Part shown: positions 6,109 through 64,000 of the stretch, piece by piece
Layout of the letters: the number at the start of each line of letters is the position of its first letter
Numbering within the stretch: position 1 is the first letter of the stretch
The notes under the pieces: model-generated
The model's database searches: none
What the model saw: only the letters and a program-made list of their open reading frames with translations
Told to the model about the DNA's origin: nothing
Translations under genes and position numbers: made by a program
Assembly: GCA_043802485.1 (NCBI GenBank)
Contig: JAZDKZ010000007.1
Coordinates: 50,457 to 114,456, forward strand
Source: Candidatus Aenigmatarchaeota archaeon
GTDB lineage: Archaea > Aenigmatarchaeota > Aenigmatarchaeia > Aenigmatarchaeales > Aenigmatarchaeaceae
DNA: 64,000 bases
Direction of reading: 5' to 3'

Positions 6109-6180
6109 GGGCCCATGGTCTAGCGGTATGACGCCACCTTGACAGGGTGGAGGCCGAGAGTTCGAATCTCTCTGGGCCCA
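6109..6180 (+). tRNA. tRNA-Val(GAC), 72 nt, no intron
   Basis: Acceptor GGGCCCA/TGGGCCC, discriminator A. D-arm GTCT-AGCGGTA-TGAC. Anticodon stem CCACC/GGTGG with loop TTGACAG. Variable loop AGGCC. T-arm GAGAG-TTCGAAT-CTCTC. Confidence 0.85.
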
Positions 6181-6194
6181 CTCATAGTGTTTTG

Positions 6195-9598: not shown

Positions 9599-9659
9599 TT
9601 GTTCACCTTTACTATGAAGAATTGTAAAGTTGATATTTATAATTTGTGGTAGAAGGCAA

Positions 9660-10595: not shown

Positions 10596-10656
10596 CTTTT
10601 CACTCTAAAATAAGATTATCAAATTGGTATTTATAATTTGCAGTAAACACACTACA

Positions 10657-11706: not shown

Positions 11707-11736
11707 AAAGAATAATTAGAGCCTATTAAAATAAGT

Positions 11737-24311: not shown

Positions 24312-24719
24312 ATGAAGGGAGTAAGCGCAGTAATTGCAGTTATTTTGATTTTAATGATAGTTGTTGCTATGGCTGCATTGGCTTATACCTGGTTCACATC
24401 AATGACTACAGACCTCATGACAAGCACGGGCCAGAGCATAAATAAAACAACAACACAGATGGCAAAGGGCTTTTCCATATCATCTGCTGGCTGCAACGCC
24501 GGTGCTCTGCAGTTTGCCATAGTAAACACTGGTACAGGTGTGTTGCAGGCTGATCAGGTCGAAGCGTCTTTGGACGGCTTGGATGCTAGCACAAGCAACC
24601 CAGGCGGAACAATACCAGAAGGTGGTTCCCAGGTTTACACGGGCGGTTCTTGTGTCGGCGGTGAGACTCTGAGAGTAGTCATAGAATCTGGTTTAGCAAT
24701 GACAAAAACTGTAGAGTAA
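24312..24719 (+). CDS. Archaeal type IV pilin-like protein (class III signal peptide)
   Basis: MKG|VSAVIAVILILMIVVAMAALAY: short basic leader, G at -1, about 20-aa hydrophobic stretch (prepilin peptidase PibD/FlaK-type site). SD GAGGTG upstream. Confidence 0.6.
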   Translation: MKGVSAVIAVILILMIVVAMAALAYTWFTSMTTDLMTSTGQSINKTTTQMAKGFSISSAGCNAGALQFAIVNTGTGVLQADQVEASLDGLDASTSNPGGTIPEGGSQVYTGGSCVGGETLRVVIESGLAMTKTVE

Positions 24720-24802
24720 ATGACCTAGCAACAAGAGACTAGACTTTTTTTATTATTTTTATAATTTTATTTCTTTTTTATTCAATCTATATATTCTGGG
24801 GA

Positions 24803-25318
24803 ATGAATTTATCTATAATGAAGGGCCAGGCAGAGGTAATAGTCTTCATTCTTCTGTTTCTAATAGGCATAAGCCTTTTCGCGTCAGCTACAATATGGGG
24901 CAGGAAGATTTTCGAGGATAACATGGACTTCACAAAGCTGGAGGCCGCTGAAAAGATTATGATTGACATTGACAATGGAGTGTCCAACGTAATAAAGTTC
25001 GGAGGCATTAAGGAAATAGCGTATCCTCTAGACGGGACCGTAGAGATAGTAGACACTAAAACCATAGAAATCAGGACGCCACTGAAAATAGAAATACAGG
25101 AAGAATGGATAAACATCTCTGAAGGGAATTCCTATATCAGGGAAAAGAAGGACGGCGACGACCTTGTTCTACAACTAATCTATCCTGACGGCGACTACAT
25201 AGTAGAATTCTTCACTGACGGTTCAAGCCTTGACAGTCCCAACTACATAAAGCTGGAAAAGAACGAGACGTTCACCAATCCGACGTCTAGGATTAAAATA
25301 AAAATAACCTTTATGTAA
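24803..25318 (+). CDS. Pilin-like protein (class III signal)
   Basis: MNLSIMKG|QAEVIVFILLFLIGISLFA. Confidence 0.5.
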   Translation: MNLSIMKGQAEVIVFILLFLIGISLFASATIWGRKIFEDNMDFTKLEAAEKIMIDIDNGVSNVIKFGGIKEIAYPLDGTVEIVDTKTIEIRTPLKIEIQEEWINISEGNSYIREKKDGDDLVLQLIYPDGDYIVEFFTDGSSLDSPNYIKLEKNETFTNPTSRIKIKITFM

Positions 25319-25327
25319 TTATCTCTT

Positions 25328-25750
25328 ATGAAAGGTCAGTATCTGACGCTAGAGTACGTCATATTCTTCGTTATCGGCTTAATACTAATCGTCTCAGTCT
25401 ATCACATATTCTCTGACCTTAATCTAGAATACGAGAAGCATACCACAGAGTACCAGCTCAGAATGACAGGCCATATGATAATGGGGACGGTAATAAGGGT
25501 GTTTGAGACATCGGAGCACACCAACACCAAGATAAGCTACGACCTGAAGATACCTGAAAGGCTTTCAAACTGCATATATTCCGTGACCCTTGCCGGCGGT
25601 CGTCTGAGACTTGACTGCGTAGAAGGCATAGACCTCGGGGTTGATTTAACATCGTACAACTTTAATATTGAAATAAAAAATAATATAATATACAGCAGCA
25701 ATGGCTTGATTCATGTAGCTGCTGAAAACGGAGAGATTGATTTAGAATGA
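25328..25750 (+). CDS. Pilin-like protein (class III signal)
   Basis: MKG|QYLTLEYVIFFVIGLILIV. Confidence 0.5.
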   Translation: MKGQYLTLEYVIFFVIGLILIVSVYHIFSDLNLEYEKHTTEYQLRMTGHMIMGTVIRVFETSEHTNTKISYDLKIPERLSNCIYSVTLAGGRLRLDCVEGIDLGVDLTSYNFNIEIKNNIIYSSNGLIHVAAENGEIDLE

Positions 25751-27498
25751 GTGTCAAACTTAGAAGGCCTGTGAAGAGAGTAAACCTTTACAAAGTCTTC
25801 ACAAAAGCTGTCATCGGCTACAAGGAATTGGAAAGTCAGAGAAGAAATGAAAGGTCTGGAATTCCCCAAGGTTACATTCCCTACCCATTTCCGGCACCGA
25901 GCCTCAAAGTAGAGAAAATGGAAGTGGAAAAGCTTGAAGAAAAGGAAAAGAAATCCTCTATACTAGAAATGGGGTCCACTATAAGGATGAGGGAACCTGA
26001 AATGGACCTAAAGTCTATAAACATCGTTTACACTCTGATACCTTCAAACGACAAGACGCCGTTCGCAAGCGCCAACATAAAGTGGAGCAGAAGGGAATCA
26101 GGCCTTGTATATTATCTCATCGAGCCTGTTCTTTCCGACGAAGAGAAGAAGCTGCTAAACAACATAAAACTGGCATTGGTAGAGAAGCTTGACGTGGACT
26201 TTAAGACCCTGAGAAAGGATGATGCAAAGTCCTTCCTGGCGAAAAAGTTTGAGGACACGATAAACCTTATGGCAGCTGAGCTGCCATATCAAAAGAGACA
26301 GGCTCTTTTCTATTATGTGCAGAGGGATTTTGTCGGGATGGACAAGATAGAGCCGATGATGCAGGACCCGAACATAGAGGACATATCATGCGACGGTGTC
26401 GGCATACCTATTTACATATTCCACAGGAACCCGCTGATAGGAAGCATAAGGACGAACGTGGTCTTTGAGGACTGGGATGAACTGGACACGTTCGTGAGCA
26501 AGATGGCGCAAAGATGCGGCAAAAACATTTCGATCGCAACCCCCATGATAGGAGGCAGCCTGCCAGACGGTTCTAGAGTTCAAGCCACGCTTGGAACAGA
26601 CATAGCAAGAAGGGGAAGCAACTTTACGATAAGGAAGTTCACAAAGAAGCCCCTGACACCAGTCAACCTGATAAATTTCAAGTCAATGGACCCCAAAATC
26701 GCGGCCTACCTCTGGTTGGCGATAGAATATGGAAGGTCTGTTCTTGTAAGCGGCGGAGTGGCAACAGGAAAGACAACCATACTCAACGCCATGTCCTTGT
26801 TCATAAAACCTGAATTGAAGATAGTGTCGATAGAAGACACTGCGGAACTTGTACTGCCGCACCCTCACTGGGTGCCTGGCGTTGCAAGAACAGCGATAAC
26901 AGAGGTTGCAGGCAAGAAAATCGGAGAAGTGGACCTGTTCGACCTGCTGCGAGAGTCGATGAGGCAGAGACCAGACTACCTCATAGTAGGAGAAGTCAGA
27001 GGAAGGGAAGCATACGTATTGTTCCAGCAGATAGCAACAGGCCACCCAAGCATGTCCACCATACACGCGGACTCCATGGAAAGGCTGGTAGACAGGCTGA
27101 CAACGCCGCCAATCAACCTTCCGGCTTCTCTGATAGAAACATTGGACATAGTAGTGTTCATTGTTAAGATGAAATACGGCCAGACCTATGTAAGAAGGAT
27201 AAAGAGCATATACGAGGTTCTAGGCTTTGACAGGGAGAAGAACGTACCCTTAGTAAACGAGGTCTATAGTTGGGACCCTCTCAGCGACACGTACAAAAAA
27301 GTCAACAAATCAAACGTGATAGAGAAAATAAGCCTGCAGTTCGGCATAGCAAAGAGCTCCCTTGATATGGAGATAGCGAACAGGACCAAGATAATGCAGT
27401 GGATGGTCGAGAACAAGGTGGATGACTACATAGATGTGGCAAAGATAATCAAGCTCTACTACACGAGAAAGCAGGACCTACTAGACGAGATCGGATGA
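25747..27498 (+). CDS. Type II/IV secretion-family ATPase (FlaI/TadA/CpaF-like) for archaeal type IV pilus assembly
   Basis: Walker A VSGGVATGKTT, Walker B/Asp box DYLIVGEVRGREA, His box ATGHPSMSTIHADS; 583 aa. Overlaps upstream and downstream genes by 4 nt. Confidence 0.85.
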   Translation: MSVKLRRPVKRVNLYKVFTKAVIGYKELESQRRNERSGIPQGYIPYPFPAPSLKVEKMEVEKLEEKEKKSSILEMGSTIRMREPEMDLKSINIVYTLIPSNDKTPFASANIKWSRRESGLVYYLIEPVLSDEEKKLLNNIKLALVEKLDVDFKTLRKDDAKSFLAKKFEDTINLMAAELPYQKRQALFYYVQRDFVGMDKIEPMMQDPNIEDISCDGVGIPIYIFHRNPLIGSIRTNVVFEDWDELDTFVSKMAQRCGKNISIATPMIGGSLPDGSRVQATLGTDIARRGSNFTIRKFTKKPLTPVNLINFKSMDPKIAAYLWLAIEYGRSVLVSGGVATGKTTILNAMSLFIKPELKIVSIEDTAELVLPHPHWVPGVARTAITEVAGKKIGEVDLFDLLRESMRQRPDYLIVGEVRGREAYVLFQQIATGHPSMSTIHADSMERLVDRLTTPPINLPASLIETLDIVVFIVKMKYGQTYVRRIKSIYEVLGFDREKNVPLVNEVYSWDPLSDTYKKVNKSNVIEKISLQFGIAKSSLDMEIANRTKIMQWMVENKVDDYIDVAKIIKLYYTRKQDLLDEIG

Positions 27499-27502
27499 TA
27501 AG

Positions 27503-28375
27503 ATGGACCTATGGCAGACACTCAAGCAGCTATCCTTCAAGTTCTTTGGAAGAAGTCTAGAACCCTTTATCAATTATTTTGACAGCATAAAGCCTGACCT
27601 GATAAGAGCAAACATCGGCCTGAGCCTCCAGGAATACGTATACATAATGTTCTTTGTGATACTTGCCACATTCATTGTGGAGTTCCCGTTCATAGTCATA
27701 ATAACATCGCTTCTGCTCCGTGACGCAATAAATGCTTTCCTGCTATCATTCACACTTACTGTGGTCATACTGATAGTCCAGTTCTTTATTTTCTATACTT
27801 ATCCCAGCATGGTTGCTGGAAGGAGAAAAAAGAACATAGACTCGTCTCTGTCTTTTGCGACAACGTACATGGCGACTGTGGCCGCGTCAGGTGCCCCTCC
27901 CATCACAATGTTCAAGGTGATGGCAGAATTCAAGGACTATGGCGAGATATCACAGGAAATGGGCAAGATATACAGGGATGTTGAAGCTTTCGGGATGGAG
28001 CTTGTAGAGGCAATAAGGAAAACGGCAAGCAGGACGCCTTCTGAGGAGCTGAAAGAATTGTTGTGGGGCCTGGAGACAACACTGTCAAGCGGAGGGAACG
28101 TCGGAGACTTTCTGCACGAGAAATCAAGACTCTTCATAGCAGAGTACAGAAGAAGGCTGGAAAAGTATTCAAATACACTGTCGATGCTAATAGAAGTTTA
28201 TCTTACTGTTGTGCTCATCGGTTCCATTTTTTTCATAATCATGACAGCGCTCATGTCAATCATAGGAGGAAGTTCGGGCACGTTCATGATGTTTTTGCAG
28301 TTCGCAGTAATTTTCCTAGTGCTGCCATTCGTTTCAATAGGGTTCATTTTATTGGTTAAGACGATATCGCCTTAA
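27503..28375 (+). CDS. Pilus platform membrane protein, TadB/FlaJ N-terminal-half-like (T2SS-F domain)
   Basis: Polytopic membrane protein with the cytoplasmic helical T2SSF-like domain (SLSFATTYMATVAASGAPPITMFKVMA...) immediately after the ATPase gene. Confidence 0.6.
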   Translation: MDLWQTLKQLSFKFFGRSLEPFINYFDSIKPDLIRANIGLSLQEYVYIMFFVILATFIVEFPFIVIITSLLLRDAINAFLLSFTLTVVILIVQFFIFYTYPSMVAGRRKKNIDSSLSFATTYMATVAASGAPPITMFKVMAEFKDYGEISQEMGKIYRDVEAFGMELVEAIRKTASRTPSEELKELLWGLETTLSSGGNVGDFLHEKSRLFIAEYRRRLEKYSNTLSMLIEVYLTVVLIGSIFFIIMTALMSIIGGSSGTFMMFLQFAVIFLVLPFVSIGFILLVKTISP

Positions 28376-28377
28376 GC

Positions 28378-29364
28378 GTGAGAAAGATGAAAAAGAAAAG
28401 CGACAAAAAGTTCGATGTCAAGGAAATCGTGTCAAACATAAAGCCGACGCAGATACCGTTCATAGTGGCCGGCTTTATCATACTTCTAGGGCTGGCTTTC
28501 TACCAGAACGTCGGTGTGATGTGGAACCTGATTGTGCTGGGCATAATAATCGCAGTGGCGCCCTACGCTCTCATAACCTATTTCGAGTATGCAAAGATCA
28601 AAGCGATAGAAGACCAGCTGCCAATATTCCTGCTAGACCTAGCCGAATCGCAAAAGGTCGGCCTAACTCTGCACGAGTCCCTGAAGCAGGCATCCAAAGT
28701 GGACTATGGCAAGCTGTCGCCCGAGATAAAGAAGGTCTACCACCAGCTTTCGTGGGGCATAAGGGTGCAGGACGTGTTCGAAAACTTTTCAAAGAGGATG
28801 AAAAAATCAAAGCTGATATCAAGAGTAGTGAGCATAATCAACGAGACGTATATTTCTGGGGGCGACATCGGAAGGACAATGGAATCCACTGCCTCTGACA
28901 TAACAGCCATAAACGAGGCTGAGAAGGAAAGAAGGTCGGTGACATCACAGCACACTTTCATCATGTACGCGATATACTTCATCTTCATAGGGATAGTCGT
29001 GGGCCTATCCCAAACGCTAATACCTCTCCTCAGCATCGGAGCTGAAGGGCAGGCGGCAGGAGGCATTGGAGGCATATTCTCTTTCGAGGACCCATGCATA
29101 CAGTGCGAGGGCTCCAACGATATACTCTGCATAAACTGCCCTATCTTCTCTGTAGTATGCCAGATGCTGGACCTTGAGTCTGGAGGAACTTGCTACTACA
29201 ATGCCCTGTTCGTTCTGATGGCAGTGGTCCAGGGCATATTCTCGGGCCTGGTCGCAGGACAGATAGGGGAAGGCTCTGTATCAGCCGGCTTGAAGCACAG
29301 CCTGATAATGACAATATGCGGCTTCAGTGCTTTGGTGATACTGCTGAAATTCGGGTTTATGTGA
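28378..29364 (+). CDS. Pilus platform membrane protein, TadC/FlaJ C-terminal-half-like, with a 6-Cys inserted loop
   Basis: Second T2SSF-like domain (IPIFLLDLAESQKVGLTLHESLKQASK...). Unusual Cys cluster EDPCIQCEGSNDILCINCPIFSVVCQ in a predicted loop. Confidence 0.6.
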   Translation: MRKMKKKSDKKFDVKEIVSNIKPTQIPFIVAGFIILLGLAFYQNVGVMWNLIVLGIIIAVAPYALITYFEYAKIKAIEDQLPIFLLDLAESQKVGLTLHESLKQASKVDYGKLSPEIKKVYHQLSWGIRVQDVFENFSKRMKKSKLISRVVSIINETYISGGDIGRTMESTASDITAINEAEKERRSVTSQHTFIMYAIYFIFIGIVVGLSQTLIPLLSIGAEGQAAGGIGGIFSFEDPCIQCEGSNDILCINCPIFSVVCQMLDLESGGTCYYNALFVLMAVVQGIFSGLVAGQIGEGSVSAGLKHSLIMTICGFSALVILLKFGFM

Positions 29365-29368
29365 TGTT

Positions 29369-29788
29369 ATGAAAGGCCAAATGAGAATCGAGTTCATTGC
29401 AGGGATATTGATATTCGTCATAATAATAGTCTTCATTGTCAACCAGACCAACATAACTTTCTCAAACCTCCTGACCGATTCTAGGGCAGACATACTGAAA
29501 GCAAAGGCTTTGAACTCGATAACAATACTCACGGAGGACGTAGGAAACGATAGGATCGGTCTGGCAACAGCGCCGCTGGAACTTTCGATGGTAAAGATAA
29601 ACAATCTTGATGCAAACTGCCAACTGCTGGAAGACTTTGAACTGGGATCATACAGGCTAAAGATTTACAATTCCACAAGCATGATACTTTTCTGTGGCTA
29701 CGAAATGTCATCGCCGCCAAGGTCGATAGAAACCAGGTACGTAAAAATAGGGAACGATTATGGAAACGTAACATTGGAGTTGTGGTAA
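29369..29788 (+). CDS. Pilin-like protein (class III signal)
   Basis: MKG|QMRIEFIAGILIFVIIIVFIV. Confidence 0.5.
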   Translation: MKGQMRIEFIAGILIFVIIIVFIVNQTNITFSNLLTDSRADILKAKALNSITILTEDVGNDRIGLATAPLELSMVKINNLDANCQLLEDFELGSYRLKIYNSTSMILFCGYEMSSPPRSIETRYVKIGNDYGNVTLELW

Positions 29789-30913
29789 ATGAAAGGCTTT
29801 GTATACCTGCTGGAGATAGCCGTGACGTCCATACTCATAGTGGTGATACTAAGCACGTTCTTCGGGATAAGAGTGAAGCAGAACTGGGACACCTCTGACT
29901 TGATAGGCGTAGGCAACAACATAATAAACTACCTAGACAAGGACGAAAGCTTCTTCCTGAAAGTTCTTGAAAAGAATTTCACCTACATCGAAAGCACAAA
30001 GCCTGCCAACATAGGCTACGGTGTTAAGGTAAGGGGCTCCCCAAAAACAGAGATAATCGTTGGATGCACGCAGTCTCCTCTCTACCAATACACAGAAAGC
30101 ATTCTTACTCCCGCATATGTCAACAACAGGTTCATCACATTCATTATGGAGGATTATGACATAAGGAATGACATACCAAACCATCTTGACGCCATTGTCC
30201 TTATCAACTTTACAAACTATACGATAGAGAAGGATAAGATACTGAAATATCTTGACGAGGGCGGTGTTGTCATCGGGATAAATGCAACCAATGTAAACAA
30301 CAACGCTGATTTCAACGAAATATTCGGTCTATCATCTCCGGGATTCCCGAGCGGTGCGAACACATTCGTTCCATATAATCCTTCAAAAGAGGATGTGGAA
30401 AAGTACTTTATGGGAATAGGCTTCGATGTTACGGATGAATGGTACATATGGGAAGAGCGATGGACAGTCACATATGGTTCAAATTACATAAATGTATCAA
30501 AGGGTGGCGAGGAAAGAAACTTCCTGAATAAAGGAGAAACGTTTGACTTGAACGGCCACACGTTCAAGGTGAACAGAATAGGTTCTGGAGAAGCCAACAT
30601 CCAAGCTACCAGAACAGGATTCATCTTTGAAGATTTTTCTGATTTAAATGATGTGCAGGGCAATAAGATAGTGGGACCTGGAAGCGCAGCATCAATGGCG
30701 TCCAACGGGAAGGCGATATGGATATCTGACTTTCCCTGGAGCGACGAGTACAGAACCCTGGTAAAGTCTGCCATAATCTCGAGAAACGACGAGTGGACTG
30801 CCAGAGGAGTTTACACGACAAGGGAAACCACGACAGTTTCATCGTTCTTTTCCCTTTGCTGCGACATGACCGAGGTCTCGGAACTAGAGTTAACATTGTG
30901 GTATGTGGTATGA
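29789..30913 (+). CDS. Large pilin-like or pilus-associated protein (class III signal + 340-aa extracellular domain)
   Basis: MKG|FVYLLEIAVTSILIVVILSTFFG; several NxT/S sequons. Confidence 0.5.
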   Translation: MKGFVYLLEIAVTSILIVVILSTFFGIRVKQNWDTSDLIGVGNNIINYLDKDESFFLKVLEKNFTYIESTKPANIGYGVKVRGSPKTEIIVGCTQSPLYQYTESILTPAYVNNRFITFIMEDYDIRNDIPNHLDAIVLINFTNYTIEKDKILKYLDEGGVVIGINATNVNNNADFNEIFGLSSPGFPSGANTFVPYNPSKEDVEKYFMGIGFDVTDEWYIWEERWTVTYGSNYINVSKGGEERNFLNKGETFDLNGHTFKVNRIGSGEANIQATRTGFIFEDFSDLNDVQGNKIVGPGSAASMASNGKAIWISDFPWSDEYRTLVKSAIISRNDEWTARGVYTTRETTTVSSFFSLCCDMTEVSELELTLWYVV

Positions 30914-31542
30914 AATTCTGTTTCGTATGTGGGAAGAAGACTAACGAGCTTGTAGACGGGTACTGTGAAGACTGCTACAATGACAAGTTTAGCCTGCTGA
31001 AAGTGCCGAAGGAATTGACTGTCAAGATGTGCACCAGGTGCAACATGATAAAGCACAGGAACAGGTGGATGGATATAAAGGTAGAGGACGTCCTGAGAGA
31101 CAAGATAGAAGTTCTTGGTAGGGCGGTGGACCTGAAGATAGATATTGATGACAATATAACGATAAAGGCTAAAGGCTTTCTAAAGGATTGCAAGAAATCA
31201 AAAAAGGAAAGCTATGACATAAGGCTGAAAATAAACAAGATAGTATGCCCCACATGCTCCAGAGCCTCTGGAGGGTACTATGAGGCAATAATACAGTTGA
31301 GAGGAAAAACAGAAGAAGCCATGGATTTCCTGGTCGACCAGGCTGTCAAGGAACAGAAAAACTACAGAGCAGAACAGAAAGGCAGATGTTTCGACGTGTA
31401 CATCATGGACAAGCACTTTGCCAACAGCGTAGCAAACGCGATGATAAAGAGATTCAAGGCCAGAATCAAGAAGAGTTTCAGGATTGTCACGAAAAAAGAA
31501 GGGAAAGATATTTATAGGAGCGTAATTGTAGTAAGGATTTAG
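30910..31542 (+). CDS. NMD3-family protein (archaeal homolog of the 60S export adaptor), short form
   Basis: N-terminal double CxxC zinc-binding MKFCFVCGKKTNELVDGYCEDCY ... CTRCNMIK ... CPTCSRASGGYYEAIIQLRG is typical of the NMD3 N-domain. Start chosen at the ATG that overlaps the upstream TGA (ATGA); the ORF-track N-terminal extension is unlikely. Confidence 0.45.
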   Translation: MKFCFVCGKKTNELVDGYCEDCYNDKFSLLKVPKELTVKMCTRCNMIKHRNRWMDIKVEDVLRDKIEVLGRAVDLKIDIDDNITIKAKGFLKDCKKSKKESYDIRLKINKIVCPTCSRASGGYYEAIIQLRGKTEEAMDFLVDQAVKEQKNYRAEQKGRCFDVYIMDKHFANSVANAMIKRFKARIKKSFRIVTKKEGKDIYRSVIVVRI

Positions 31543-40624: not shown

Positions 40625-41242
40625 TTACATCCAGTCTTCTTCCCATTCTTCCATTCTGTCTTCATCAATGACAGGCGTTTTTCTTCTTTTGATTATGTGC
40701 TCTCCGTACTTTTCTCTCAGCTTTAGACCCACAATCAGACCGAATGCGAGTCCAAAAAGGTGAGCAGCATTTGCAACACCTGACGGAGCGAAAAACCCGA
40801 TTATATCACCAATGGCCCAAAGGACAACAGCAACAGCCATAGGCATAGGAATATATGAAACGTATACAGTCATTCTTGATCTCAAAACACCAAGTGCTCC
40901 CAGAACACCAAATATTGCTCCCGAAGCTCCTATTGATGCAGCATAGAAAGGAATAGTTCCCAGTCCGGCTATTACTCCTGAGACAAAGTATAGAATTAGG
41001 AATTTCTTTCCGCCTATCACCTTCTCAAGCACCGAACCGAACAGACCTAGCGCAAACATGTTGTAGAAAAGGTGCTCAAAACCTCCGTGAAGGAACATAC
41101 TTGTTATTAATGTCCATGGTCTTGCGAAAACGTCAGCAGAGACAAGAGCATATTCATCTGTTATTGATGGGTAAGCAAGCTGGAAGATGAAGACGATTAC
41201 ACAAATCGCTACCAGTTGAAAGGCAAACCATCTGTATTTCAT
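40625..41242 (-). CDS. Rhomboid-family intramembrane serine protease
   Basis: HGGFEHLFYNM (L1/TM2), catalytic GASGAIFG (GxSG) in TM4 and H in AAHLFGLAFG (TM6); 6 TM. Confidence 0.75.
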   Translation of the reverse strand: MKYRWFAFQLVAICVIVFIFQLAYPSITDEYALVSADVFARPWTLITSMFLHGGFEHLFYNMFALGLFGSVLEKVIGGKKFLILYFVSGVIAGLGTIPFYAASIGASGAIFGVLGALGVLRSRMTVYVSYIPMPMAVAVVLWAIGDIIGFFAPSGVANAAHLFGLAFGLIVGLKLREKYGEHIIKRRKTPVIDEDRMEEWEEDWM

Positions 41243-59706: not shown

Positions 59707-60186
59707 ATGAATTTATCCAAATTGTTTTTCCTGGTGACAGCATTCACGCTGTTCCTGACAGTTGTGCAGCTGTTCGGCTACTGGGTTCTTGAATTACTGA
59801 TTATCATGCTCATAATCGACTTTCTCACGCTGACAGCAAGCGTGCAATTGGGCAGCAGAAACCACCCAAAAGGCAACCCGAACGGCAAGGACGTTGCCAC
59901 AAAGCTGGACGCCATAGACAAGAGGTGCACAGAAATCTTCGACAAGGTGAACAATTCTACGCTGGAGACAAAGCTTCAGAAGCATGGAGAGGACATTACA
60001 TATATCCTTGACAAGATGGCCAGAAAGACCATGGATCTGGAGGAGAAGATAATAAAGTTCGGCAACGGCATGGTTGACTCAATGGCAGGCCTGAAGGAAA
60101 AGGTTAATGACATTGAAACCAAGAAAGATGGAGATTCTTTCTCCCTAGGCGAGCTGGTCTATGTCAAGGATGAAGAAGATTCTTAA
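59707..60186 (+). CDS. Membrane protein (2 TM + coiled-coil), hypothetical
   Basis: Occupies the position where L1/L10/L12 genes usually follow rpl11. Confidence 0.4.
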   Translation: MNLSKLFFLVTAFTLFLTVVQLFGYWVLELLIIMLIIDFLTLTASVQLGSRNHPKGNPNGKDVATKLDAIDKRCTEIFDKVNNSTLETKLQKHGEDITYILDKMARKTMDLEEKIIKFGNGMVDSMAGLKEKVNDIETKKDGDSFSLGELVYVKDEEDS

Positions 60187-60481
60187 AGCTTTTCTTCCAA
60201 TTAGTGTTATGAAGTATTTTTGGGCTGCCTTTGGGCTGGTGATAGCAGTTTGCATAGCTCAGCTGCTCACCCACATGAGCCTTGAGCTCACAATAGTGCT
60301 TTTTTCAATAGATTTCATGATTCTGGGGGCAGAACTGCTGAAGAACAGGGCCAACAAGTCGCTAGTAATAATCAAATTGGAAGGCATAGAGATGGCCTTT
60401 AATGACGCTGCAAGCAGCTTGGTTTCCCCTTCTTTGAAGGCAAAGGGCCAGGAAATCATAGAATGGCTGAACAAATTCTAG
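60161..60481 (+). CDS. Small membrane protein (106 aa)
   Basis: Two TM helices. Confidence 0.35.
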   Translation: MSRMKKILKAFLPISVMKYFWAAFGLVIAVCIAQLLTHMSLELTIVLFSIDFMILGAELLKNRANKSLVIIKLEGIEMAFNDAASSLVSPSLKAKGQEIIEWLNKF

Positions 60482-60542: not shown

Positions 60543-60941
60543 CTATTGTCGAAGACTGTAGAACTTTTTTCGACTATCAACCCTTGACAGCATCATGCCT
60601 TCGTCTTCCATCTGCTTCAGGTACTCGTTGCACCTTGTTCTCGACAGTTTGATCAGTTGACTCAACTGGGAAGGCGTGATCTCATTGTACTTTTGCAGTA
60701 TCATCTTGATAGCCTCCTTGGTCTTGACGGCTATGGTCCTCTGCTGCAGCTTTATACCTGTCGAAGAAATGGTGTCATCAATATTGAGTACTTTGGCCTC
60801 TATTCTGTCGATTTTCTGGCCTAAATTCTTCAGTCTCTCAATCTCTAAAGCCATCTGCGCGTAACGCATGTCGAGAAGCTTGACGATTTTCCTCAGATTT
60901 TCCTCTTCGTCATTCTTCGACCTAAAAACAGATTTGAACAT
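60543..60941 (-). CDS. Coiled-coil + C-terminal wHTH DNA-binding protein (133 aa)
   Basis: C-terminus ITPSQLSQLIKLSRTRCNEYLKQMEDEGMMLS is a wHTH. Start moved to the internal ATG (MFKSVFRSKNDEE); the ORF-track 100-aa N-terminal extension is non-protein-like and overlaps an obvious TATA region. Confidence 0.4.
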   Translation of the reverse strand: MFKSVFRSKNDEEENLRKIVKLLDMRYAQMALEIERLKNLGQKIDRIEAKVLNIDDTISSTGIKLQQRTIAVKTKEAIKMILQKYNEITPSQLSQLIKLSRTRCNEYLKQMEDEGMMLSRVDSRKKFYSLRQ

Positions 60942-60965
60942 GATATATATTCTTTCATTTCCCGA

Positions 60966-60973
60966 TATATAAA
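60966..60973 (-). promoter_or_regulatory. Putative TATA box (TTTATATA, minus strand) about 28 nt upstream of the 60941 start codon, consistent with a leaderless mRNA
   Basis: Minus-strand sequence gagaaatTTTATATAtcgggaaatgaaagaatatatatcATG. Confidence 0.35.
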
Positions 60974-61116
60974 ATTTCTCGACAATTGATTTTTTCTCGT
61001 ATTGTCGATTTTCTGACGGTTTCCTTCTCTTGTCGCCTATAATACCATCGACAGAAAGATTTGTATTACAAAATCTTGGCCAAACGTATTGTACAATACT
61101 GTATATGTGATAGTCG

Positions 61117-62130
61117 ATGGTTAAAAAGGACCCTATAAAATCTATAATTGAAGCCTTGAGGATGAATCCTGAAGGCTTGACGCTTCTTTCTCTGGCAAGT
61201 GTGACAGGGCTGCATCGACACACATGTACAAAATACATCAATGAATTGTTGAAAGCAGATGTTGTCTACCAGCGAGATGTCGGTGTGGCAAAGCTTTGCT
61301 ACCTAAAAAAGAAAGTCGAGAATAACGCAGAAGAGGACAGGCTGGTGGCAAGCCTCAAAAAGAAGAGAAGGGGGAAAACCCAGCTAAAGCTCATGGTTGC
61401 TGTCGTTATCCTGACTTTCCTGCTGAGCGAGACAGCAATCATAGCCTACGCAAACAACACCATCCTAAACATGACGAACACGTCGAACATAAACACAAGC
61501 CCCATGACAAGCACATCGAATGTGTCGGATCTTACAGCCTTTTTCAATGAGACATCTGACCTGAATGAGACCGGAAATATTACTGTCGAACCGCCGTCAG
61601 TTCCGAACCTAACGGATTCTGTCGGAACTGTCGATTATACTAACTATAGCTCAGAAAGCCAAAATAACGGCGAAAATACCACTTTTAACGCAACTTTTTT
61701 GACGGAAAACGTCACCATTTCTAACCAAACAGACGACATGAACACAACTGAGAACCAAACGAATGCGACCGATTTAGGCGCTTCGAACGCGTCTGACAAC
61801 CAAAACCAAACAATTGACATCGAAAACCTGCTCAATGGGACATCCATAGGAACTGTCGACCCGACATTTGATGTTCAGTTGGTGTATCCCCAGAGGATAA
61901 CCAGAGGCGAACTGATTGGGATAAGGGCCGAAGCCTCAACAGACACGTTTGCCAAGAACGTATACCTGAAATGGTTGCTGCCTAAGGGCTTTGAGATAGT
62001 CTCTGGCAATGCCATAGAGGCATGTGATGACATGAACGCCAGTTCCTGCATATCAGAGATAGAGGTTAGGACTGATTTGACTGACATTGGCCTGAATGAC
62101 ATAAGAGTTGTGATGGAATATGAAAAGTAG
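61117..62130 (+). CDS. Membrane-tethered wHTH regulator: N-terminal cytoplasmic wHTH, one TM, about 230-aa extracellular Asn/Thr/Ser-rich domain with about 25 N-glycosylation sequons
   Basis: wHTH LTLLSLASVTGLHRHTCTKYINELLKADVVYQRDVGVAKLCYL; TM LKLMVAVVILTFLLSETAIIAYA; then NMTNTSNINTS...NETSDLNETGNITV...NQTNATDLGASNASDNQNQT. Confidence 0.5.
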   Translation: MVKKDPIKSIIEALRMNPEGLTLLSLASVTGLHRHTCTKYINELLKADVVYQRDVGVAKLCYLKKKVENNAEEDRLVASLKKKRRGKTQLKLMVAVVILTFLLSETAIIAYANNTILNMTNTSNINTSPMTSTSNVSDLTAFFNETSDLNETGNITVEPPSVPNLTDSVGTVDYTNYSSESQNNGENTTFNATFLTENVTISNQTDDMNTTENQTNATDLGASNASDNQNQTIDIENLLNGTSIGTVDPTFDVQLVYPQRITRGELIGIRAEASTDTFAKNVYLKWLLPKGFEIVSGNAIEACDDMNASSCISEIEVRTDLTDIGLNDIRVVMEYEK

Positions 62131-64000
62131 TGCCAAAACAGGACAGAGCCAGCTGCTGATACCTCTGCTGGTCATAATAACCTCTGCAGTGGTATTCGCT
62201 ACCAACGTGACCATGAACTGGACCAACCAGACGCCTATAACAGGCTATTACATGGGAATTCCCAATTCTTCTTCGCAGGAATTCTCGTTCACGATAGAGG
62301 TATGGGCTAACACTTCTATTTCTCTTTCTAAGGAGGGCGACCTCATAAAATCCGTGCTTCTGATGGACAACGGCTCTGCTGTTCCTGGCCAAAAAATCGA
62401 TTTCTTCCTGAACAACAGTCCTATTTATTCTGACACAACTGACAAGAACGGTCTGATTGATTTTCCCTTACCTTTCAACGGAACTGCCAGGGCTGTTTTC
62501 TCTGGTGGAAATTATCTGAACCCATCCGAAAACGAGATGGTTTTTGGTGGAAAGGCTGAATCTGTTGTAAAAAGGACTGATTCTTTTGTTCTCGAGGTTT
62601 TGGAGGTAGAGCAGGGCGAGATAAAGATAGGAGAACCTGTCAAATGGATTAGAGAATTCAAACTAACTAACCCGAAAGACAAAGACTCATTGGCAGAGCT
62701 TATCTTGGATATCCCTGACGAGGCCTTCAACATAACAGTTTCTGAGAAGGGTTCGAAGAAGCTGGTGAACATAGCCAAGAAAATCATTAAAGAGAATCTC
62801 AAAGCAGGTGAGAGTAGGGAGTATTTGCTTGAATATTATACAGATTCTCCTGTACTGAACGAGAATCTGATAAGCAGATACAGAAAACTAATCAATGTCA
62901 GCTCACCCATCCACTACAGCAACGTTCCGGCTTATACTGACATCGAAGAGTCTCCTATAGATTCGATAAGGCTCTACTGGATTAGCGACGGGCAGAGAAT
63001 AGACGTCACAGGAGATCCTTTGTACAATGTCAGCTTTGTCGATTCAGACGGGGACGGCCTGATAGACAGGCTGGAATGGAATGTTCCGCATCTTTCCGAA
63101 CAGCTGTTCGAAGTATCAATCACTGTTTTGAATCCATATACATATCTTAAAGATGGAGATAACTGGATAGTAGCCTTTGAAACTGTTGGAACTGCGAACC
63201 TGACGATTAACTCCACCAACGCAGGCTGGATAGAATTTCTTACCGACAATCTGGAAACCTTTGACGAGATGAGTTTCCTAGATATAAGATGCGGAGACGC
63301 ATCTTTGAAGGATTCGCTCCAATTAATTGATTTTTATGGCAATGTCTACAACTACTCTGATTTGTCAGATAACAATTCAATAGAGATAGAACATCTATTC
63401 ATCCAGAATTATTCATGTGATGAAACAGGTTATATCACAAACAACATGATAAGATCTGGTTATGCCACTCTCCAATTTACTTTTGGTGATCAGACAGCTT
63501 TTGCATACGACCCTGCAGTTGTCTGCAACTGGTCTACAGATACTGTGAACTGGGCTGACCAACAGGGTGGTGGTGGTTCTGCATGGGGAGTTGCGAACAC
63601 CACTTGGAATGTGGGCACTAACTGTAGCCAAGCTGGTGGTCCTTCTACAGGATGCTATATTGCTAATATATCGATAAACATGTACGGTGCTTCGGCAAGC
63701 CCTGCTTCTGGTGGATTGGGTTTTGTAATATTCAGCAACAATTCGACGCAGTTCTTTCCCATGGCAATAGATAAGACTGGTGCATATACATATGGTCCTG
63801 TAGATTCCTGTGGAGCCAGTAACAATCTCACTGGGTCAGGATGGCCGAGTGGTCCACCAAACGCAACTCCAAATACATGCAACCTGAGTTCTACTAGCCG
63901 GTTTAATGTAACAAGGTACACGGTCAATTGGTATATACCAGGTAAAGGTTCGATATCGATACCTACAATTAAATATCAATGGTGCTGGGAAGACGCGTTT
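62120..64000 (+). CDS. Large secreted/surface protein, 5' partial in window (over 626 aa, runs off the right edge); absent from the ORF track because no stop lies in the window
   Basis: Open frame from ATG 62120 (MKSSAKTGQSQLLIPLLVIITSAVVFA signal-anchor) to the window end. Many NxS/T sequons. DSDGDGLID calcium-binding-like loop, Gly-rich GGGGS linker, multiple Cys pairs. Start overlaps the upstream gene by 11 nt. Confidence 0.5.
   Translation, partial: MKSSAKTGQSQLLIPLLVIITSAVVFATNVTMNWTNQTPITGYYMGIPNSSSQEFSFTIEVWANTSISLSKEGDLIKSVLLMDNGSAVPGQKIDFFLNNSPIYSDTTDKNGLIDFPLPFNGTARAVFSGGNYLNPSENEMVFGGKAESVVKRTDSFVLEVLEVEQGEIKIGEPVKWIREFKLTNPKDKDSLAELILDIPDEAFNITVSEKGSKKLVNIAKKIIKENLKAGESREYLLEYYTDSPVLNENLISRYRKLINVSSPIHYSNVPAYTDIEESPIDSIRLYWISDGQRIDVTGDPLYNVSFVDSDGDGLIDRLEWNVPHLSEQLFEVSITVLNPYTYLKDGDNWIVAFETVGTANLTINSTNAGWIEFLTDNLETFDEMSFLDIRCGDASLKDSLQLIDFYGNVYNYSDLSDNNSIEIEHLFIQNYSCDETGYITNNMIRSGYATLQFTFGDQTAFAYDPAVVCNWSTDTVNWADQQGGGGSAWGVANTTWNVGTNCSQAGGPSTGCYIANISINMYGASASPASGGLGFVIFSNNSTQFFPMAIDKTGAYTYGPVDSCGASNNLTGSGWPSGPPNATPNTCNLSSTSRFNVTRYTVNWYIPGKGSISIPTIKYQWCWEDAF

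What the first reader, a model, noticed from the sequence alone, without database searches (positions are those of the whole stretch)
61117..64000. Coupled pair: wHTH-TM protein with heavily sequon-decorated ectodomain, plus overlapping large secreted protein running off the window
The upstream protein carries about 25 NxS/T sequons in 230 aa of predicted extracellular sequence. The downstream gene (start overlaps by 11 nt; missed by the ORF track because no stop falls in the window) encodes a protein of over 620 aa with a signal-anchor, many sequons, a DSDGDGLID Ca-binding-like loop and a GGGGS linker. Together they look like a regulator/anchor plus cargo surface module. They may be part of a larger locus beyond 64000.
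Basis: seen in the sequence. Interest (0 to 1): 0.55.

Follow-up and report, generated by a model that had tools for sequence, protein, structure and literature searches.

The report
Membrane-tethered regulator with giant adhesin gene
The two overlapping genes are a membrane-anchored DNA-binding protein and the first 627 residues of a giant sugar-coated surface protein of a tiny symbiotic (DPANN) archaeon; in related genomes the two are one polypeptide, so the surface fibre appears wired to control of its own gene.

Summary
Gene A (61117-62130, 337 aa) is a winged-helix domain, one membrane helix, a disordered stalk with 20 N-glycosylation sequons, and a C-terminal beta-sandwich. Gene B (62120 to beyond 64000) overlaps A by 11 nt and stays open for 627 codons with 26 sequons. 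Both are 10-17 times richer in sequons than the other 67 ORFs of the window.

The organism is an Aenigmatarchaeota (DPANN) archaeon. B is only the start of a giant protein: orthologues exceed 3,961 aa, and A-linked neighbours are called at 12,232 and 14,201 aa.

The pair belongs to a conserved cassette:
- a divergent 132-aa coiled-coil winged-helix gene (60543-60941, minus strand);
- an intergenic region with conserved TCGACA boxes and a 16-bp palindrome (TGTACAATATTGTACA; window 61090-61105, 2 mismatches) 11 nt before A's ATG;
- A, then the giant gene.

A scan with the DNA motif alone recovered A-family genes in 32 of 36 testable metagenome contigs. In other genomes the whole of A is fused in frame to the giant protein.

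Best reading: a ToxR-like, membrane-tethered autoregulator of a giant glycosylated adhesin. DNA binding and function are inferred, not shown. I found no published description, and I class it as a new variant of a known kind.

The parts
60543..60941 (-). Divergent gene 'Div': 132-aa protein with an N-terminal coiled coil and a C-terminal winged helix (recognition-helix region KLSRTRCNEYLK).
   Evidence: Pfam HTH_24 at 30.4 bits, above the 21.9-bit cut-off. A local HMM finds it divergently placed beside A in 42 loci, which is every locus carrying the palindrome.
60964..60976 (-). TATA-like element (ATATATAAAATTT on the + strand) about 24 nt from Div's start codon. Inferred promoter for a leaderless Div transcript.
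   Evidence: Conserved block in the 7-genome intergenic alignment. The promoter role is inference from position only.
60979..61008 (.). Inverted repeat TCGACAAT-N14-ATTGTCGA (boxes 1 and 2).
   Evidence: Single match in the 64-kb window, against 0.01 expected by chance. The TCGAC/GTCGA cores are invariant in the alignment. The two arms abut as ATTGTCGATCGACAAT in L127.
61038..61044 (+). TATA-like TATAATA, the inferred promoter element of the A-B operon.
   Evidence: Partly conserved column block just upstream of box 3. Inference only; no transcription start data.
61048..61053 (.). TCGACA box 3, immediately downstream of the putative TATA of gene A.
   Evidence: C-TCGACA is invariant in 7 genomes. 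It is also present upstream of the fused genes in L082, L007 and L127.
61090..61105 (.). Operator-like palindrome TGTACAATACTGTATA, 2 mismatches from the family consensus TGTACAATATTGTACA, ending 11 nt before A's ATG.
   Evidence: Only match in the window at up to 3 mismatches. Exact and unique in L003, L005 and L083-L086. The motif scan recovers A genes in 32 of 36 testable contigs.
61117..62130 (+). Gene A, 337 aa. Cytoplasmic winged helix: residues 1-63 (61117-61305). Basic juxtamembrane helix plus membrane helix: residues 92-112 (61390-61452). Disordered sequon stalk: residues 113-245 (61453-61851). CLIPPER/NEW3-like beta-sandwich: residues 250-337 (61864-62127).
   Evidence: P0022 is 100% identical and is annotated 'hypothetical protein V1818_04735 [Candidatus Aenigmatarchaeota archaeon]'.
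62120..64000 (+). Gene B, the first 627 codons of a giant surface glycoprotein. Leader and membrane helix: residues 1-28 (62120-62203). Invariant T41-G42 within PITGYY (residues 39-44, 62234-62251). Ig-like domain: residues 62-143 (62303-62548). Conserved DPANN 'core' module: residues 150-466 (62567-63517), containing the DxDxDG loop at 63041-63067. Low-confidence region: residues 467-627.

Best explanation
The window ends in a conserved Aenigmatarchaeota (DPANN) cassette that makes, and probably self-regulates, a giant N-glycosylated surface fibre.

Gene B is the N-terminal 627 residues of that fibre. It has a short basic leader and one membrane helix. These are followed by a string of Ig-like beta-sandwich domains with a DxDxDG calcium-type loop. 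In orthologues, thousands more sequon- and cysteine-rich residues follow.

Gene A is a type-II (N-in) membrane protein. A MarR/IclR-like winged-helix domain sits in the cytoplasm. A basic juxtamembrane helix and one conserved membrane helix hold it at the membrane. Outside the cell there is a heavily glycosylated disordered stalk and a CLIPPER/NEW3-like beta-sandwich.

A and B are translationally coupled through the 11-nt overlap. They are the two halves of what is a single polypeptide in related genomes.

Proposed mechanism (inferred, not shown): the cytoplasmic winged helix of A binds, as a dimer, the palindrome just upstream of its own start codon. It works together with the divergently encoded coiled-coil winged-helix protein and the TCGACA boxes. 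Transcription of the very costly A-B operon is thereby set by how much A and fibre is already in the membrane, or by what the ectodomain senses. This is ToxR/CadC-like one-component logic applied to an adhesin.
For: Shown:
- Domain order and topology of A. The AlphaFold model has pLDDT about 96 for the winged helix and about 95 for the sandwich. It shows a long helix at 70-118 and disorder at 124-234.
- All 21 sequons lie after the membrane helix and none before it.
- The flank N-terminal to the helix is basic (KKKRRGK).
- Fold matches. The N-terminal domain matches MarR-family proteins, TFE-alpha, AspA and Sso10a. The C-terminal domain matches CLIPPER (9ifr) and macroglobulin domains.
- Homologues carry precomputed HTH_IclR or HTH_24 hits, and NPCBM_assoc or DUF11 hits.
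- The recognition-helix residues H33 R34 H35 T36 K39 Y40 are invariant in 104 sequences.
- B's orthologue in L003 is open for more than 3,961 aa with 259 sequons.
- A-linked giants are called at 14,201 and 12,232 aa.
- B's model is a run of beta-sandwiches. It resembles integrin legs, macroglobulin domains and the giant Ca-adhesins MpIBP and SiiE.

Linkage of A and B:
- The A-B pair with its 8-23 nt overlap recurs in L003, L004 and L005 and in the metagenome loci whose contigs extend past A's stop.
- In L083 the giant gene starts 26 nt after A. In L084, L085, L094 and L101 a 295-aa gene lies between A and the giant.
- The complete A is fused in frame to the B core and giant repeats in P0197, P0201, P0205 and P0263.
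- A related winged helix plus membrane helix is fused to the B core in P0009/L082 and in L007.

Cis elements:
- Invariant palindrome and TCGACA boxes in 7 genomes whose A proteins are only 40-68% identical.
- One site per locus in 1.3 Mb of sequence.
- The motif-only metagenome scan gave 40 hits. Thirty-two of the 36 with room have an A-family ORF starting 8-13 nt after the palindrome.
- Fused loci without the divergent gene keep a variant palindrome, TGTGCATTATGCACA. Their recognition helix reads HRNT instead of HRHT.

Generality: of 59 upstream same-strand neighbours of B-core giants across DPANN, most are small DNA-binding proteins. Counts are Sigma70_r4_2 in 14, winged-helix families in about 4-6, Phage_integrase in 4 and RHH_1 in 2. 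Many overlap the giant gene's start.
Against: - No experiment and no expression data exist. DNA binding, the identity of the protein that binds each box, and the direction of regulation are all inferred.
- The palindrome co-occurs with the divergent winged-helix gene as tightly as with A, so that protein could be its binder.
- Two distant loci (L009, L039) keep the HRHT helix but lack the palindrome.
- The window's own palindrome has 2 mismatches, and the window's winged helix is below Pfam cut-offs.
- An HMM of A's sandwich domain finds no copies in the available parts of the A-linked giants.
- AglB was not found among the window ORFs scanned against Pfam, so glycosylation rests on sequon statistics alone.
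- B's true length in this genome is unknown, because the contig could not be retrieved.
Confidence: 0.6

Rival explanations
1. Cis-acting tether, or nascent-chain autoregulation. The winged helix is the first part of the protein to be made. While the rest of the A-B product (thousands of residues) is still being translated and translocated, it binds the operator on its own gene. This pins the locus to the membrane translocon (transertion) and blocks new initiations until the fibre is finished. It is not a diffusible or environment-sensing regulator.
For: The DNA-binding domain is at the extreme N-terminus in every split and fused form. The operator lies 11-40 nt upstream of the same gene's start codon and occurs once per locus. 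The winged helix stays attached to giants of 1,871-2,853 aa or more, and more than 4,032 aa in L007. The product is extremely expensive to make.
Against: This is purely inferential. In the split form A is finished after 337 aa, so it is no longer physically attached to the nascent giant. The conserved divergent second regulator and three further boxes suggest more conventional multi-factor control.
Confidence: 0.15
2. Notch/SREBP-like regulated intramembrane proteolysis. Host contact or shedding of the ectodomain triggers cleavage within A's membrane helix, and the freed winged helix then acts on DNA.
For: A's membrane helix is unusually conserved and contains polar residues (LLSETAIIAY; L102, I108 and A110 are invariant or nearly so). 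A rhomboid protease gene is in the window at 40625-41242 (Pfam 112.7 bits). Another lies two genes upstream of a giant gene in L001.
Against: The rhomboid gene is 20 kb away among housekeeping genes and is not linked to the cassette in other loci. In cells this small a membrane-tethered factor can reach the nucleoid without release. No cleavage motif was identified.
Confidence: 0.08
3. The divergent coiled-coil winged-helix protein is the real regulator and binds the palindrome. A's winged helix is a structural or protein-binding module, for example a cytoplasmic anchor or assembly platform at the base of the fibre.
For: The divergent gene is present in all 42 palindrome-bearing loci and has an invariant recognition helix. 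Loci L009 and L039 have an A-type helix but no palindrome. Winged helices also mediate protein-protein contacts; the divergent protein itself gives a weak EAP30/Vps36 hit.
Against: Fused loci L082 and L007 lack the divergent gene yet keep both a palindrome and TCGACA boxes before the start codon. The changed half-site there is matched by a changed residue in the A-type recognition helix. The residues invariant in A's helix 3 are basic or hydrogen-bonding (HRHT..KY), which is typical of DNA readout.
Confidence: 0.12
4. The palindrome acts as an RNA hairpin in the 5' leader, next to the ribosome-binding site, and controls translation or mRNA stability rather than serving as a DNA operator.
For: The hairpin appears in the minimum-free-energy fold of all four leaders tested. 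The arm change shared by the window and L004 (C to T) would keep a G-U pair in RNA. The change in fused loci (TGTACA to TGTGCA/TGCACA) is compensatory.
Against: Stability is no better than shuffled sequence for the A-type leaders (z from -0.1 to -1.1). The sequence itself, not just the pairing, is invariant across distant genomes. Compensatory changes are equally expected for a dimer-binding DNA palindrome. The transcription start is unknown.
Confidence: 0.05

Closest known systems
ToxR/ToxS, CadC and TcpP/TcpH: bacterial membrane-bound one-component transcription regulators
   Same: The domain order is the same: an N-terminal cytoplasmic winged helix, a single membrane helix, and an extracytoplasmic domain. 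They act at promoter-proximal repeats and are co-encoded with a membrane or surface partner.
   Different: Their DNA-binding domain is OmpR/PhoB-type (Trans_reg_C). A's domain matches MarR/IclR/HTH_24-type models and folds instead. A's ectodomain is a glycosylated stalk plus an adhesin-type beta-sandwich. Its partner is a giant fibre to which it is fused in some genomes. The organism is an archaeon.
ArnR/ArnR1 of Sulfolobus acidocaldarius: archaeal membrane-bound regulators of type-IV-pilus-like surface structures (PMC6396743)
   Same: Both are archaeal, with an N-terminal HTH, a membrane anchor, and control of a surface appendage.
   Different: ArnR has HTH, HAMP and sensor domains followed by two C-terminal membrane helices, and no large ectodomain. 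A has one central membrane helix and a 225-residue extracellular part. No sequence relationship was tested.
Giant Ca2+-stabilised fibrillar adhesins (MpIBP, SiiE, LapA-type) and archaeal or DPANN giant surface proteins (for example SPEARE of Nanohaloarchaeota)
   Same: B and its orthologues are very long strings of Ig-like beta-sandwiches with calcium-type loops. The best fold matches include 4p99 (MpIBP) and 2yn3 (SiiE). They are presumed to mediate attachment of a small symbiont to a host.
   Different: B has an N-terminal membrane anchor rather than a C-terminal T1SS signal. It has extreme sequon density. There are no Pfam hits at all in 3,961 aa of the orthologue. No protease or nuclease domains were seen in the available parts. 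Most distinctively, it has a linked or fused cytoplasmic DNA-binding domain.
CLIPPER (DUF11, PF01345) and NEW3/NPCBM_assoc (PF10633) adhesin stalk domains (PMC12617251)
   Same: A's C-terminal domain matches the CLIPPER crystal structure 9ifr. Many A homologues carry precomputed PF01345 or PF10633 hits.
   Different: A has a single copy at the end of a short membrane protein, not tandem stalk repeats. The window copy does not reach the Pfam thresholds. No conserved first-strand lysine is visible for an isopeptide bond. A conserved cysteine pair (C303, C311) is present instead.
MgrA (MarR family) control of giant surface proteins in Staphylococcus aureus (PMC4856396, title and abstract only)
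   Same: A MarR-type winged-helix regulator controls expression of very large surface proteins.
   Different: MgrA is soluble, global and unlinked to its targets. Here the winged helix is membrane-tethered and adjacent or fused to its presumed target.

Membership tests
MarR/IclR/HTH_24-type winged-helix DNA-binding domains (Pfam HTH clan) | Sequence match to a curated winged-helix model above its gathering score. | tested here: inconclusive
   Window A is below the cut-offs: HTH_24 15.9 bits against 21.9, MarR_2 14.3 against 27. Orthologues pass: L003 HTH_IclR 24.2 against 22, L004 HTH_24 24.0 against 21.9.
MarR/IclR/HTH_24-type winged-helix DNA-binding domains (Pfam HTH clan) | Three-helix bundle plus beta-hairpin wing fold. 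| tested here: met
   The AlphaFold model shows helices H6-16, H23-30 and H34-46 and strands E50-55 and E58-63 at pLDDT about 96. Foldseek hits include MarR-family proteins, TFE-alpha, AspA, Sso10a and NolR.
MarR/IclR/HTH_24-type winged-helix DNA-binding domains (Pfam HTH clan) | Sequence-specific DNA binding. | not testable with these tools
   Indirect evidence only: an invariant recognition helix and a co-conserved palindrome.
ToxR/CadC-like membrane-bound one-component regulators | Order of N-terminal cytoplasmic DNA-binding domain, single membrane helix, extracytoplasmic domain. | tested here: met
   Shown by the model, by sequons occurring only after the membrane helix, and by the basic N-terminal flank.
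ToxR/CadC-like membrane-bound one-component regulators | OmpR/PhoB-type winged helix (Pfam Trans_reg_C). | tested here: not met
   There is no Trans_reg_C hit at E up to 1 in the window copy, nor at E up to 0.01 in the orthologues. The matches are to MarR/IclR/HTH_24-type models.
CLIPPER/DUF11 (PF01345) or NEW3 (PF10633) domain | Match to the family model or structure. | tested here: inconclusive
   Window A gives only bMG10 at E 0.004. Homologues P0077, P0095, P0099, P0105 and P0139 carry PF10633 and/or PF01345. Foldseek gives 9ifr at E 1.5e-3.
CLIPPER/DUF11 (PF01345) or NEW3 (PF10633) domain | Intramolecular Lys-Asn isopeptide bond with a catalytic acid (PMC12617251). | not tested
   No conserved lysine appears in the first strand of alignment A5, whereas C303 and C311 are nearly invariant. 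The residue geometry of the model was not inspected.
Known archaeal S-layer glycoprotein families | Match to an S-layer model in Pfam or NCBIfam. | tested here: not met
   There are no such hits for A, B or the 3,961-aa orthologue. The PDB profile search with the B core found nothing at E up to 1.
Giant fibrillar adhesins built of tandem Ig-like repeats | Long tandem array of beta-sandwich domains on a cell-surface protein. | tested here: met
   The B model has beta domains at 62-143 and 150-466. Foldseek matches integrin legs, macroglobulin arrays, MpIBP, SiiE and SbsC. Orthologues are 3,961 to 14,201 aa.
Giant fibrillar adhesins built of tandem Ig-like repeats | Demonstrated adhesion to a host or substrate. 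| not testable with these tools
   The organism is uncultured.
Class III (type IV pilin-like) signal peptides | Short basic N-terminus, then [K/R]-G/A at the cleavage site, then a hydrophobic helix, processed by a prepilin peptidase. | tested here: inconclusive
   B starts MKSSAKTG-QSQLLIPLLVIITS, and SGQSQLLIP is conserved in all A-linked giants. Pilin-like ORFs of the window's type-IV-pilus-like locus start MKGQ.... However, B has T or S rather than K or R at position -2. There is no Pfam Class_IIIsignal hit, and no prepilin peptidase was found among the window ORFs scanned.
SPEARE-type DPANN giant proteins | Serine protease, adhesion and restriction-endonuclease domains in one giant protein. 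| tested here: not met
   There are no Pfam domains at E up to 0.01 in the first 3,961 aa of the L003 orthologue or the first 1,527 aa of L004. C-terminal parts were not available.

The most novel reading that the evidence does not exclude
DPANN archaea hard-wire their giant host-contact fibres to their own genes. A DNA-binding domain sits on the cytoplasmic end of the fibre itself (fused forms), or on a split-off base subunit (gene A here). It binds an operator next to its own start codon. The state of a surface adhesin of up to about 14,000 aa (made, exported, loaded or shed) would then be read out directly at the promoter, without any separate signalling cascade. The small HTH, RHH or integrase-like genes overlapping the start of giant genes in Woesearchaeota and Nanoarchaeota would be free-standing versions of the same principle. 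This would be a previously undescribed 'adhesin-as-transcription-factor' architecture in prokaryotes.
Probability: 0.3. Interest if true: 0.85.

Novelty: new variant of a known kind. Interest (0 to 1): 0.62.

Why it matters
DPANN archaea are tiny, mostly uncultured symbionts, and their attachment to hosts is thought to depend on huge surface proteins of unknown function and regulation. This cassette offers a concrete, testable regulatory handle:
- a defined 16-bp operator;
- two small winged-helix proteins that can be expressed recombinantly;
- a natural series of split and fused forms showing that DNA binding and the surface fibre belong together.

Membrane-tethered transcription factors are rare in archaea, and I know of none reported as part of an adhesin. 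The work also defines a conserved, un-annotated N-terminal module (B residues 150-466). It matched 454 stretches in a scan of representative genomes, and the best 80, at least, are DPANN-type. That module and the divergent-regulator signature could be used to find and classify giant surface genes in fragmented metagenomes.

Tried and rejected
- **Extending the contig.** Exact-product look-ups for gene A and for the identical database protein P0022 found nothing. B's length in this genome therefore remains unknown.
- **Family searches for B.** Pfam and NCBIfam gave nothing for B or for the 3,961-aa orthologue. The PDB sequence-profile search with 71 core domains gave nothing at E up to 1.
- **Fold search for B.** It gave only generic multi-Ig matches with low TM-scores.
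- **Is A's sandwich the repeat unit of its neighbouring giant?** Rejected. The HMM finds no copy in the available giant sequence. The many-repeat hits belong to other proteins.
- **Is the B 'core' present in all A-linked giants?** No. The L083 and L086 giants share only B's first 130 residues or so. The giants are therefore mosaic.
- **S-layer protein.** Rejected for lack of any match.
- **GGGGS linker.** Rejected because it is not conserved.
- **Frameshift fusion of A to B at the overlap.** Unlikely. B is in the +1 frame and no recognisable slippery site is present, so termination-reinitiation coupling is simpler. This rests on reading the sequence.
- **AglB and prepilin peptidase.** Neither turned up among the window ORFs scanned against Pfam.
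- **Literature searches.** I found no description of this cassette.
- **False positives.** Four of the 40 motif hits (L089, L096, L098, L110) are unrelated contexts and count as false positives.


Full report
**What is at the coordinates**

Gene A runs from ATG 61117 to TAG 62128-62130 and encodes 337 aa. Gene B starts at ATG 62120, so the two overlap by 11 nt, and B stays open through base 64000, giving 627 codons.

A has 21 N-x-S/T sequons. All lie after its single hydrophobic helix, and 20 fall within residues 113-245, where shuffles of the segment give 7.5 +/- 2.1. B has 26 sequons, against 8.6 +/- 2.5 in shuffles.

Among 67 other non-overlapping ORFs of the window, the median density is 0.36 sequons per 100 aa and the maximum is 2.88. 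A has 6.23 and B has 4.15. The enrichment is therefore real and specific to these two genes.

DSDGDGLID is at B residues 308-316, and GGGGS is at 483-487.

**Organism and context**

The window carries FtsZ, SecE, Spt5, L11, a thermosome subunit, aminoacyl-tRNA synthetases, topoisomerase VI and a type-IV-pilus-like locus.

A database protein 100% identical to A (P0022) is annotated as a hypothetical protein of a Candidatus Aenigmatarchaeota MAG, on a 130,047-bp contig. That contig could not be retrieved.

**Gene B is the tip of a giant protein**

Direct homology search gave only 8 hits, nearly all cut off by contig ends.

A scan of representative genomes with an alignment of B and its homologues found 454 related stretches. 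The best 80, at least, are DPANN-type MAGs (Aenigmatarchaeota, Woesearchaeota, Nanoarchaeota).

- In the closest locus (L003, 64% identity) the orthologous ORF is still open after 3,961 codons. It has 259 sequons and no Pfam hit at E up to 0.01.
- Downstream of other A-family genes, gene callers report products of 14,201 aa (L083) and 12,232 aa (L084).
- A preprint surveying giant genes notes that archaeal proteins above 10,000 aa are few, and mostly in Asgard archaea (10.1101/2023.11.21.568195).

A local HMM of B residues 150-470 hits 86 ORFs in the fetched loci. The hit always lies near the N-terminus, after one membrane helix, in proteins of roughly 600 to more than 5,000 aa. This is a conserved DPANN module with no Pfam family, and a PDB profile search with it finds nothing.

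The AlphaFold model of B has these features:
- a membrane helix at residues 10-28;
- a low-confidence sequon linker;
- beta-sandwich domains at 62-143 and 150-466 (pLDDT 80-90);
- a low-confidence stretch from 467 onward.

Its fold matches are strings of Ig-like domains: integrin legs, macroglobulin arrays, the giant Ca-adhesins MpIBP and SiiE, RbmA, and the S-layer protein SbsC. All have low TM-scores.

D308 and G313 of the DxDxDG loop are invariant in 71 core domains. A calcium-binding role is plausible but is inferred.

The giants are mosaic. The A-linked giants in L083 and L086 share only B's first 130 residues or so, and not the core.

**Gene A**

The AlphaFold model, built on a 104-sequence alignment, shows:
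- a winged helix at residues 1-63 (pLDDT about 96);
- one long helix at 70-118, which contains the membrane segment at 92-112;
- disorder at 124-234;
- a beta-sandwich at 250-337 (pLDDT about 95).

The basic flank KKKRRGK lies before the membrane helix, and sequons occur only after it. Together these give an N-in, C-out topology.

The N-terminal domain matches MarR-family proteins, TFE-alpha, AspA and Sso10a. The C-terminal domain matches the CLIPPER (DUF11) structure 9ifr and macroglobulin domains. CLIPPER is described in PMC12617251.

The window copy is below the Pfam winged-helix cut-offs, but orthologues pass them.

The family is sizeable. At least 123 full-length homologues were found, and 215 cluster representatives match the A profile at E up to 1e-30. 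Some of those 215 are tandem-repeat giants hit only through the sandwich domain.

H33, R34, H35, T36, K39 and Y40 of the recognition helix are invariant. So are several positions of the membrane helix.

**A and B belong together**

- The pair recurs with an overlap of 8-23 nt, usually 11 nt, in L003, L004 and L005 and in the metagenome loci whose contigs extend past A's stop.
- In L083 the giant gene starts 26 nt after A. In L084, L085, L094 and L101 a 295-aa gene lies between A and the giant.
- In every case the downstream gene starts MKS..(S)GQSQLLIPL.
- In P0197 (2,853 aa), P0201, P0205 and P0263, the whole of A is fused in frame to the B core and to repeats like those of the L003 giant. 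That covers the winged helix with HRHT, the membrane helix, the sequon stalk and the sandwich.
- In P0009/L082 and in L007 (more than 4,032 aa), a 47%-identical winged helix plus membrane helix is fused to Ig repeats and the B core.

A and B are thus a split version of a single membrane-anchored giant protein that carries a cytoplasmic DNA-binding head.

**The third gene and the operator-like DNA**

Divergent from A lies a 132-aa gene at 60543-60941 on the minus strand. It encodes a coiled coil plus a winged helix (HTH_24 30.4 bits). A local HMM finds it beside A in 42 loci.

Seven intergenic regions were aligned from genomes whose A proteins are 40-68% identical. The alignment shows invariant blocks:
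- the inverted repeat TCGACAAT-N14-ATTGTCGA (60979-61008), the only match in the window against 0.01 expected by chance;
- a third TCGACA box (61048-61053), just after a TATA-like element;
- the perfect 16-bp palindrome TGTACAATATTGTACA, which ends 11-12 nt before A's ATG.

The window copy of the palindrome (61090-61105) has 2 mismatches. It is the only site in 64 kb at up to 3 mismatches. In 1.3 Mb of fetched loci there is one site per A locus.

As an independent test, I scanned metagenomes with the DNA pattern alone (TCGACA-N30-42-palindrome). This returned 40 contigs.
- Thirty-six had room for a gene after the palindrome.
- In 32 of these, an A-family ORF starts 8-13 nt after it (E from 1e-9 to 1e-136).
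- Four hits are unrelated contexts and count as false positives.

The fused locus L127 keeps the divergent gene. It also keeps an abutted ATTGTCGATCGACAAT, a TATA plus TCGACA, and TGTACATTAATGTACA.

Fused loci L082 and L007 lack the divergent gene but keep TCGACA boxes and a variant palindrome, TGTGCATTATGCACA. Their recognition helix reads HRNT instead of HRHT. This co-variation favours the A-type winged helix as the binder of the palindrome.

The evidence is not clean, however. L009 and L039 keep HRHT without a palindrome. The divergent protein co-occurs with the palindrome as tightly as A does.

**A wider pattern in DPANN**

I examined 59 same-strand upstream neighbours of B-core giants. 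By sequence clustering:
- 19 are proteins of about 150-200 aa with two Sigma70_r4_2-like HTHs;
- 9 are A-family;
- 5 are small Phage_integrase-like proteins;
- 3 are RHH proteins.

Many of them overlap the giant gene's start by 4-56 nt. A Pfam census agrees: Sigma70_r4_2 in 14, winged-helix families in about 4-6, Phage_integrase in 4 and RHH_1 in 2. A DNA-binding partner at the 5' end of giant surface genes therefore looks like a general DPANN habit. The window shows the membrane-tethered form.

**Mechanism**

Shown here: the anatomy, the topology logic, the linkage, the fusions and the cis-element conservation.

Inferred: that A's winged helix binds the palindrome as a dimer, and that this autoregulates the A-B operon. 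In this model the divergent protein and the TCGACA boxes provide a second layer of control.

The palindrome lies between the putative TATA and the start codon. That position would suit repression, but no transcription start data exist.

Rival explanations are:
- cis-acting tethering, or nascent-chain control;
- proteolytic release, noting the rhomboid gene at 40625-41242;
- the divergent protein as the sole regulator;
- an RNA hairpin. The hairpin forms in the predicted folds, but it is no more stable than shuffled sequence for the A-type leaders (z from -0.1 to -1.1).

**Comparison with known systems**

The architecture works like ToxR/CadC, but A is not a member of that family, because it has no OmpR-type domain.

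It also differs from the archaeal ArnR/ArnR1 regulators, which have HTH, HAMP and sensor domains followed by two C-terminal membrane helices (PMC6396743).

B resembles giant fibrillar adhesins in fold only.

Four literature searches and one preprint full-text check turned up no description of the cassette.

**Verdict**

I class the finding as a new variant of a known kind. Interest is moderately high, mainly because of the fused and split series and the testable operator.

Noticed in passing
window 24312-31542: A type-IV-pilus-like locus. It has a T2SSE ATPase (25747-27498), two T2SSF platform proteins (27503-28375 and 28378-29364), and at least five small ORFs with pilin-type N-termini (MKGQ.../MKG... 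followed by a hydrophobic helix) starting at 24312, 24803, 25328, 29369 and 29789. The 139-aa ORF at 29369 has the next-highest sequon density in the window (2.88 per 100 aa).
   Followed up: partly
window 62120-62203 (B residues 1-28), and the same position in L003, L004, L005, L083, L086 and L087-L126: The leader of every A-linked giant carries the conserved motif (S/T)GQSQLLIP at the start of its membrane helix. It resembles the G-Q cleavage site of this genome's pilin-like proteins. The giant may therefore be processed by a prepilin-type peptidase, or may pair in the membrane with A's conserved helix (LLSETAIIAY). This remains unresolved.
   Followed up: partly
window 62234-62251 (B residues 39-44, PITGYY), and most B-core giants in L001-L081: A short motif P-x-(I/L/T)-T-G-(F/Y/L/M) follows the N-terminal membrane helix in 38 of 80 DPANN giant proteins under a strict pattern, and in more with relaxed spelling. 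T41 and G42 are invariant in the close alignment. It could be a processing site or a conserved first strand.
   Followed up: partly
L010 5877-18135 and L011 3617-12489: Two or three paralogous B-core genes of 1,200-1,500 aa each lie in tandem and overlap by 4 nt. A single double-HTH gene precedes the first one in L010.
   Followed up: no
L038, L057, L065, L066, L055, P0007, P0019; and L028, L058, L078, L079, L081: Other B-core giants carry different cytoplasmic N-terminal domains before the membrane helix. One is a helical domain of about 100 aa with the motif Y..G.IS..EY..KL...L..RTPE.WI..Y. The other is a short motif YIKKKGKIYGPYYY.S.R...G.V...YLG. Neither has an assigned function.
   Followed up: no
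P0263 residues ~270-400, and P0007 residues ~570-640: Intein-like (Hint) insertions sit inside giant surface proteins of the family. The 814-aa ORF at window 6147-8591 also has a weak Intein_splicing hit (26.8 bits, below the cut-off).
   Followed up: no
window 40625-41242 (-): A rhomboid intramembrane protease gene (Pfam 112.7 bits). A rhomboid-like gene also lies two genes upstream of the giant gene in L001. It is relevant only to the proteolytic-release rival and was not otherwise linked to the cassette.
   Followed up: partly
window 8630-12657 (-): Four consecutive ORFs of 306-349 aa have N-terminal signal or lipobox-like sequences (for example LVAGC, LVSGC). They may be a cluster of secreted or lipoproteins. 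They have few sequons, which contrasts with A and B.
   Followed up: no
L083 8096-9169 (-): A Cas12f1-like TNB (TnpB-type) gene is inserted between the ribosomal-protein block and the cassette in one relative. This shows that the neighbourhood upstream of the divergent gene is not fixed.
   Followed up: no
window 59707-60481 (+): Two small membrane-protein ORFs (159 aa with a coiled coil, and 106 aa) lie between L11 and the divergent regulator. ORFs of similar size lie at the corresponding position in L003 and L004, but not in L083, L084 or L086. They have no family hits.
   Followed up: no
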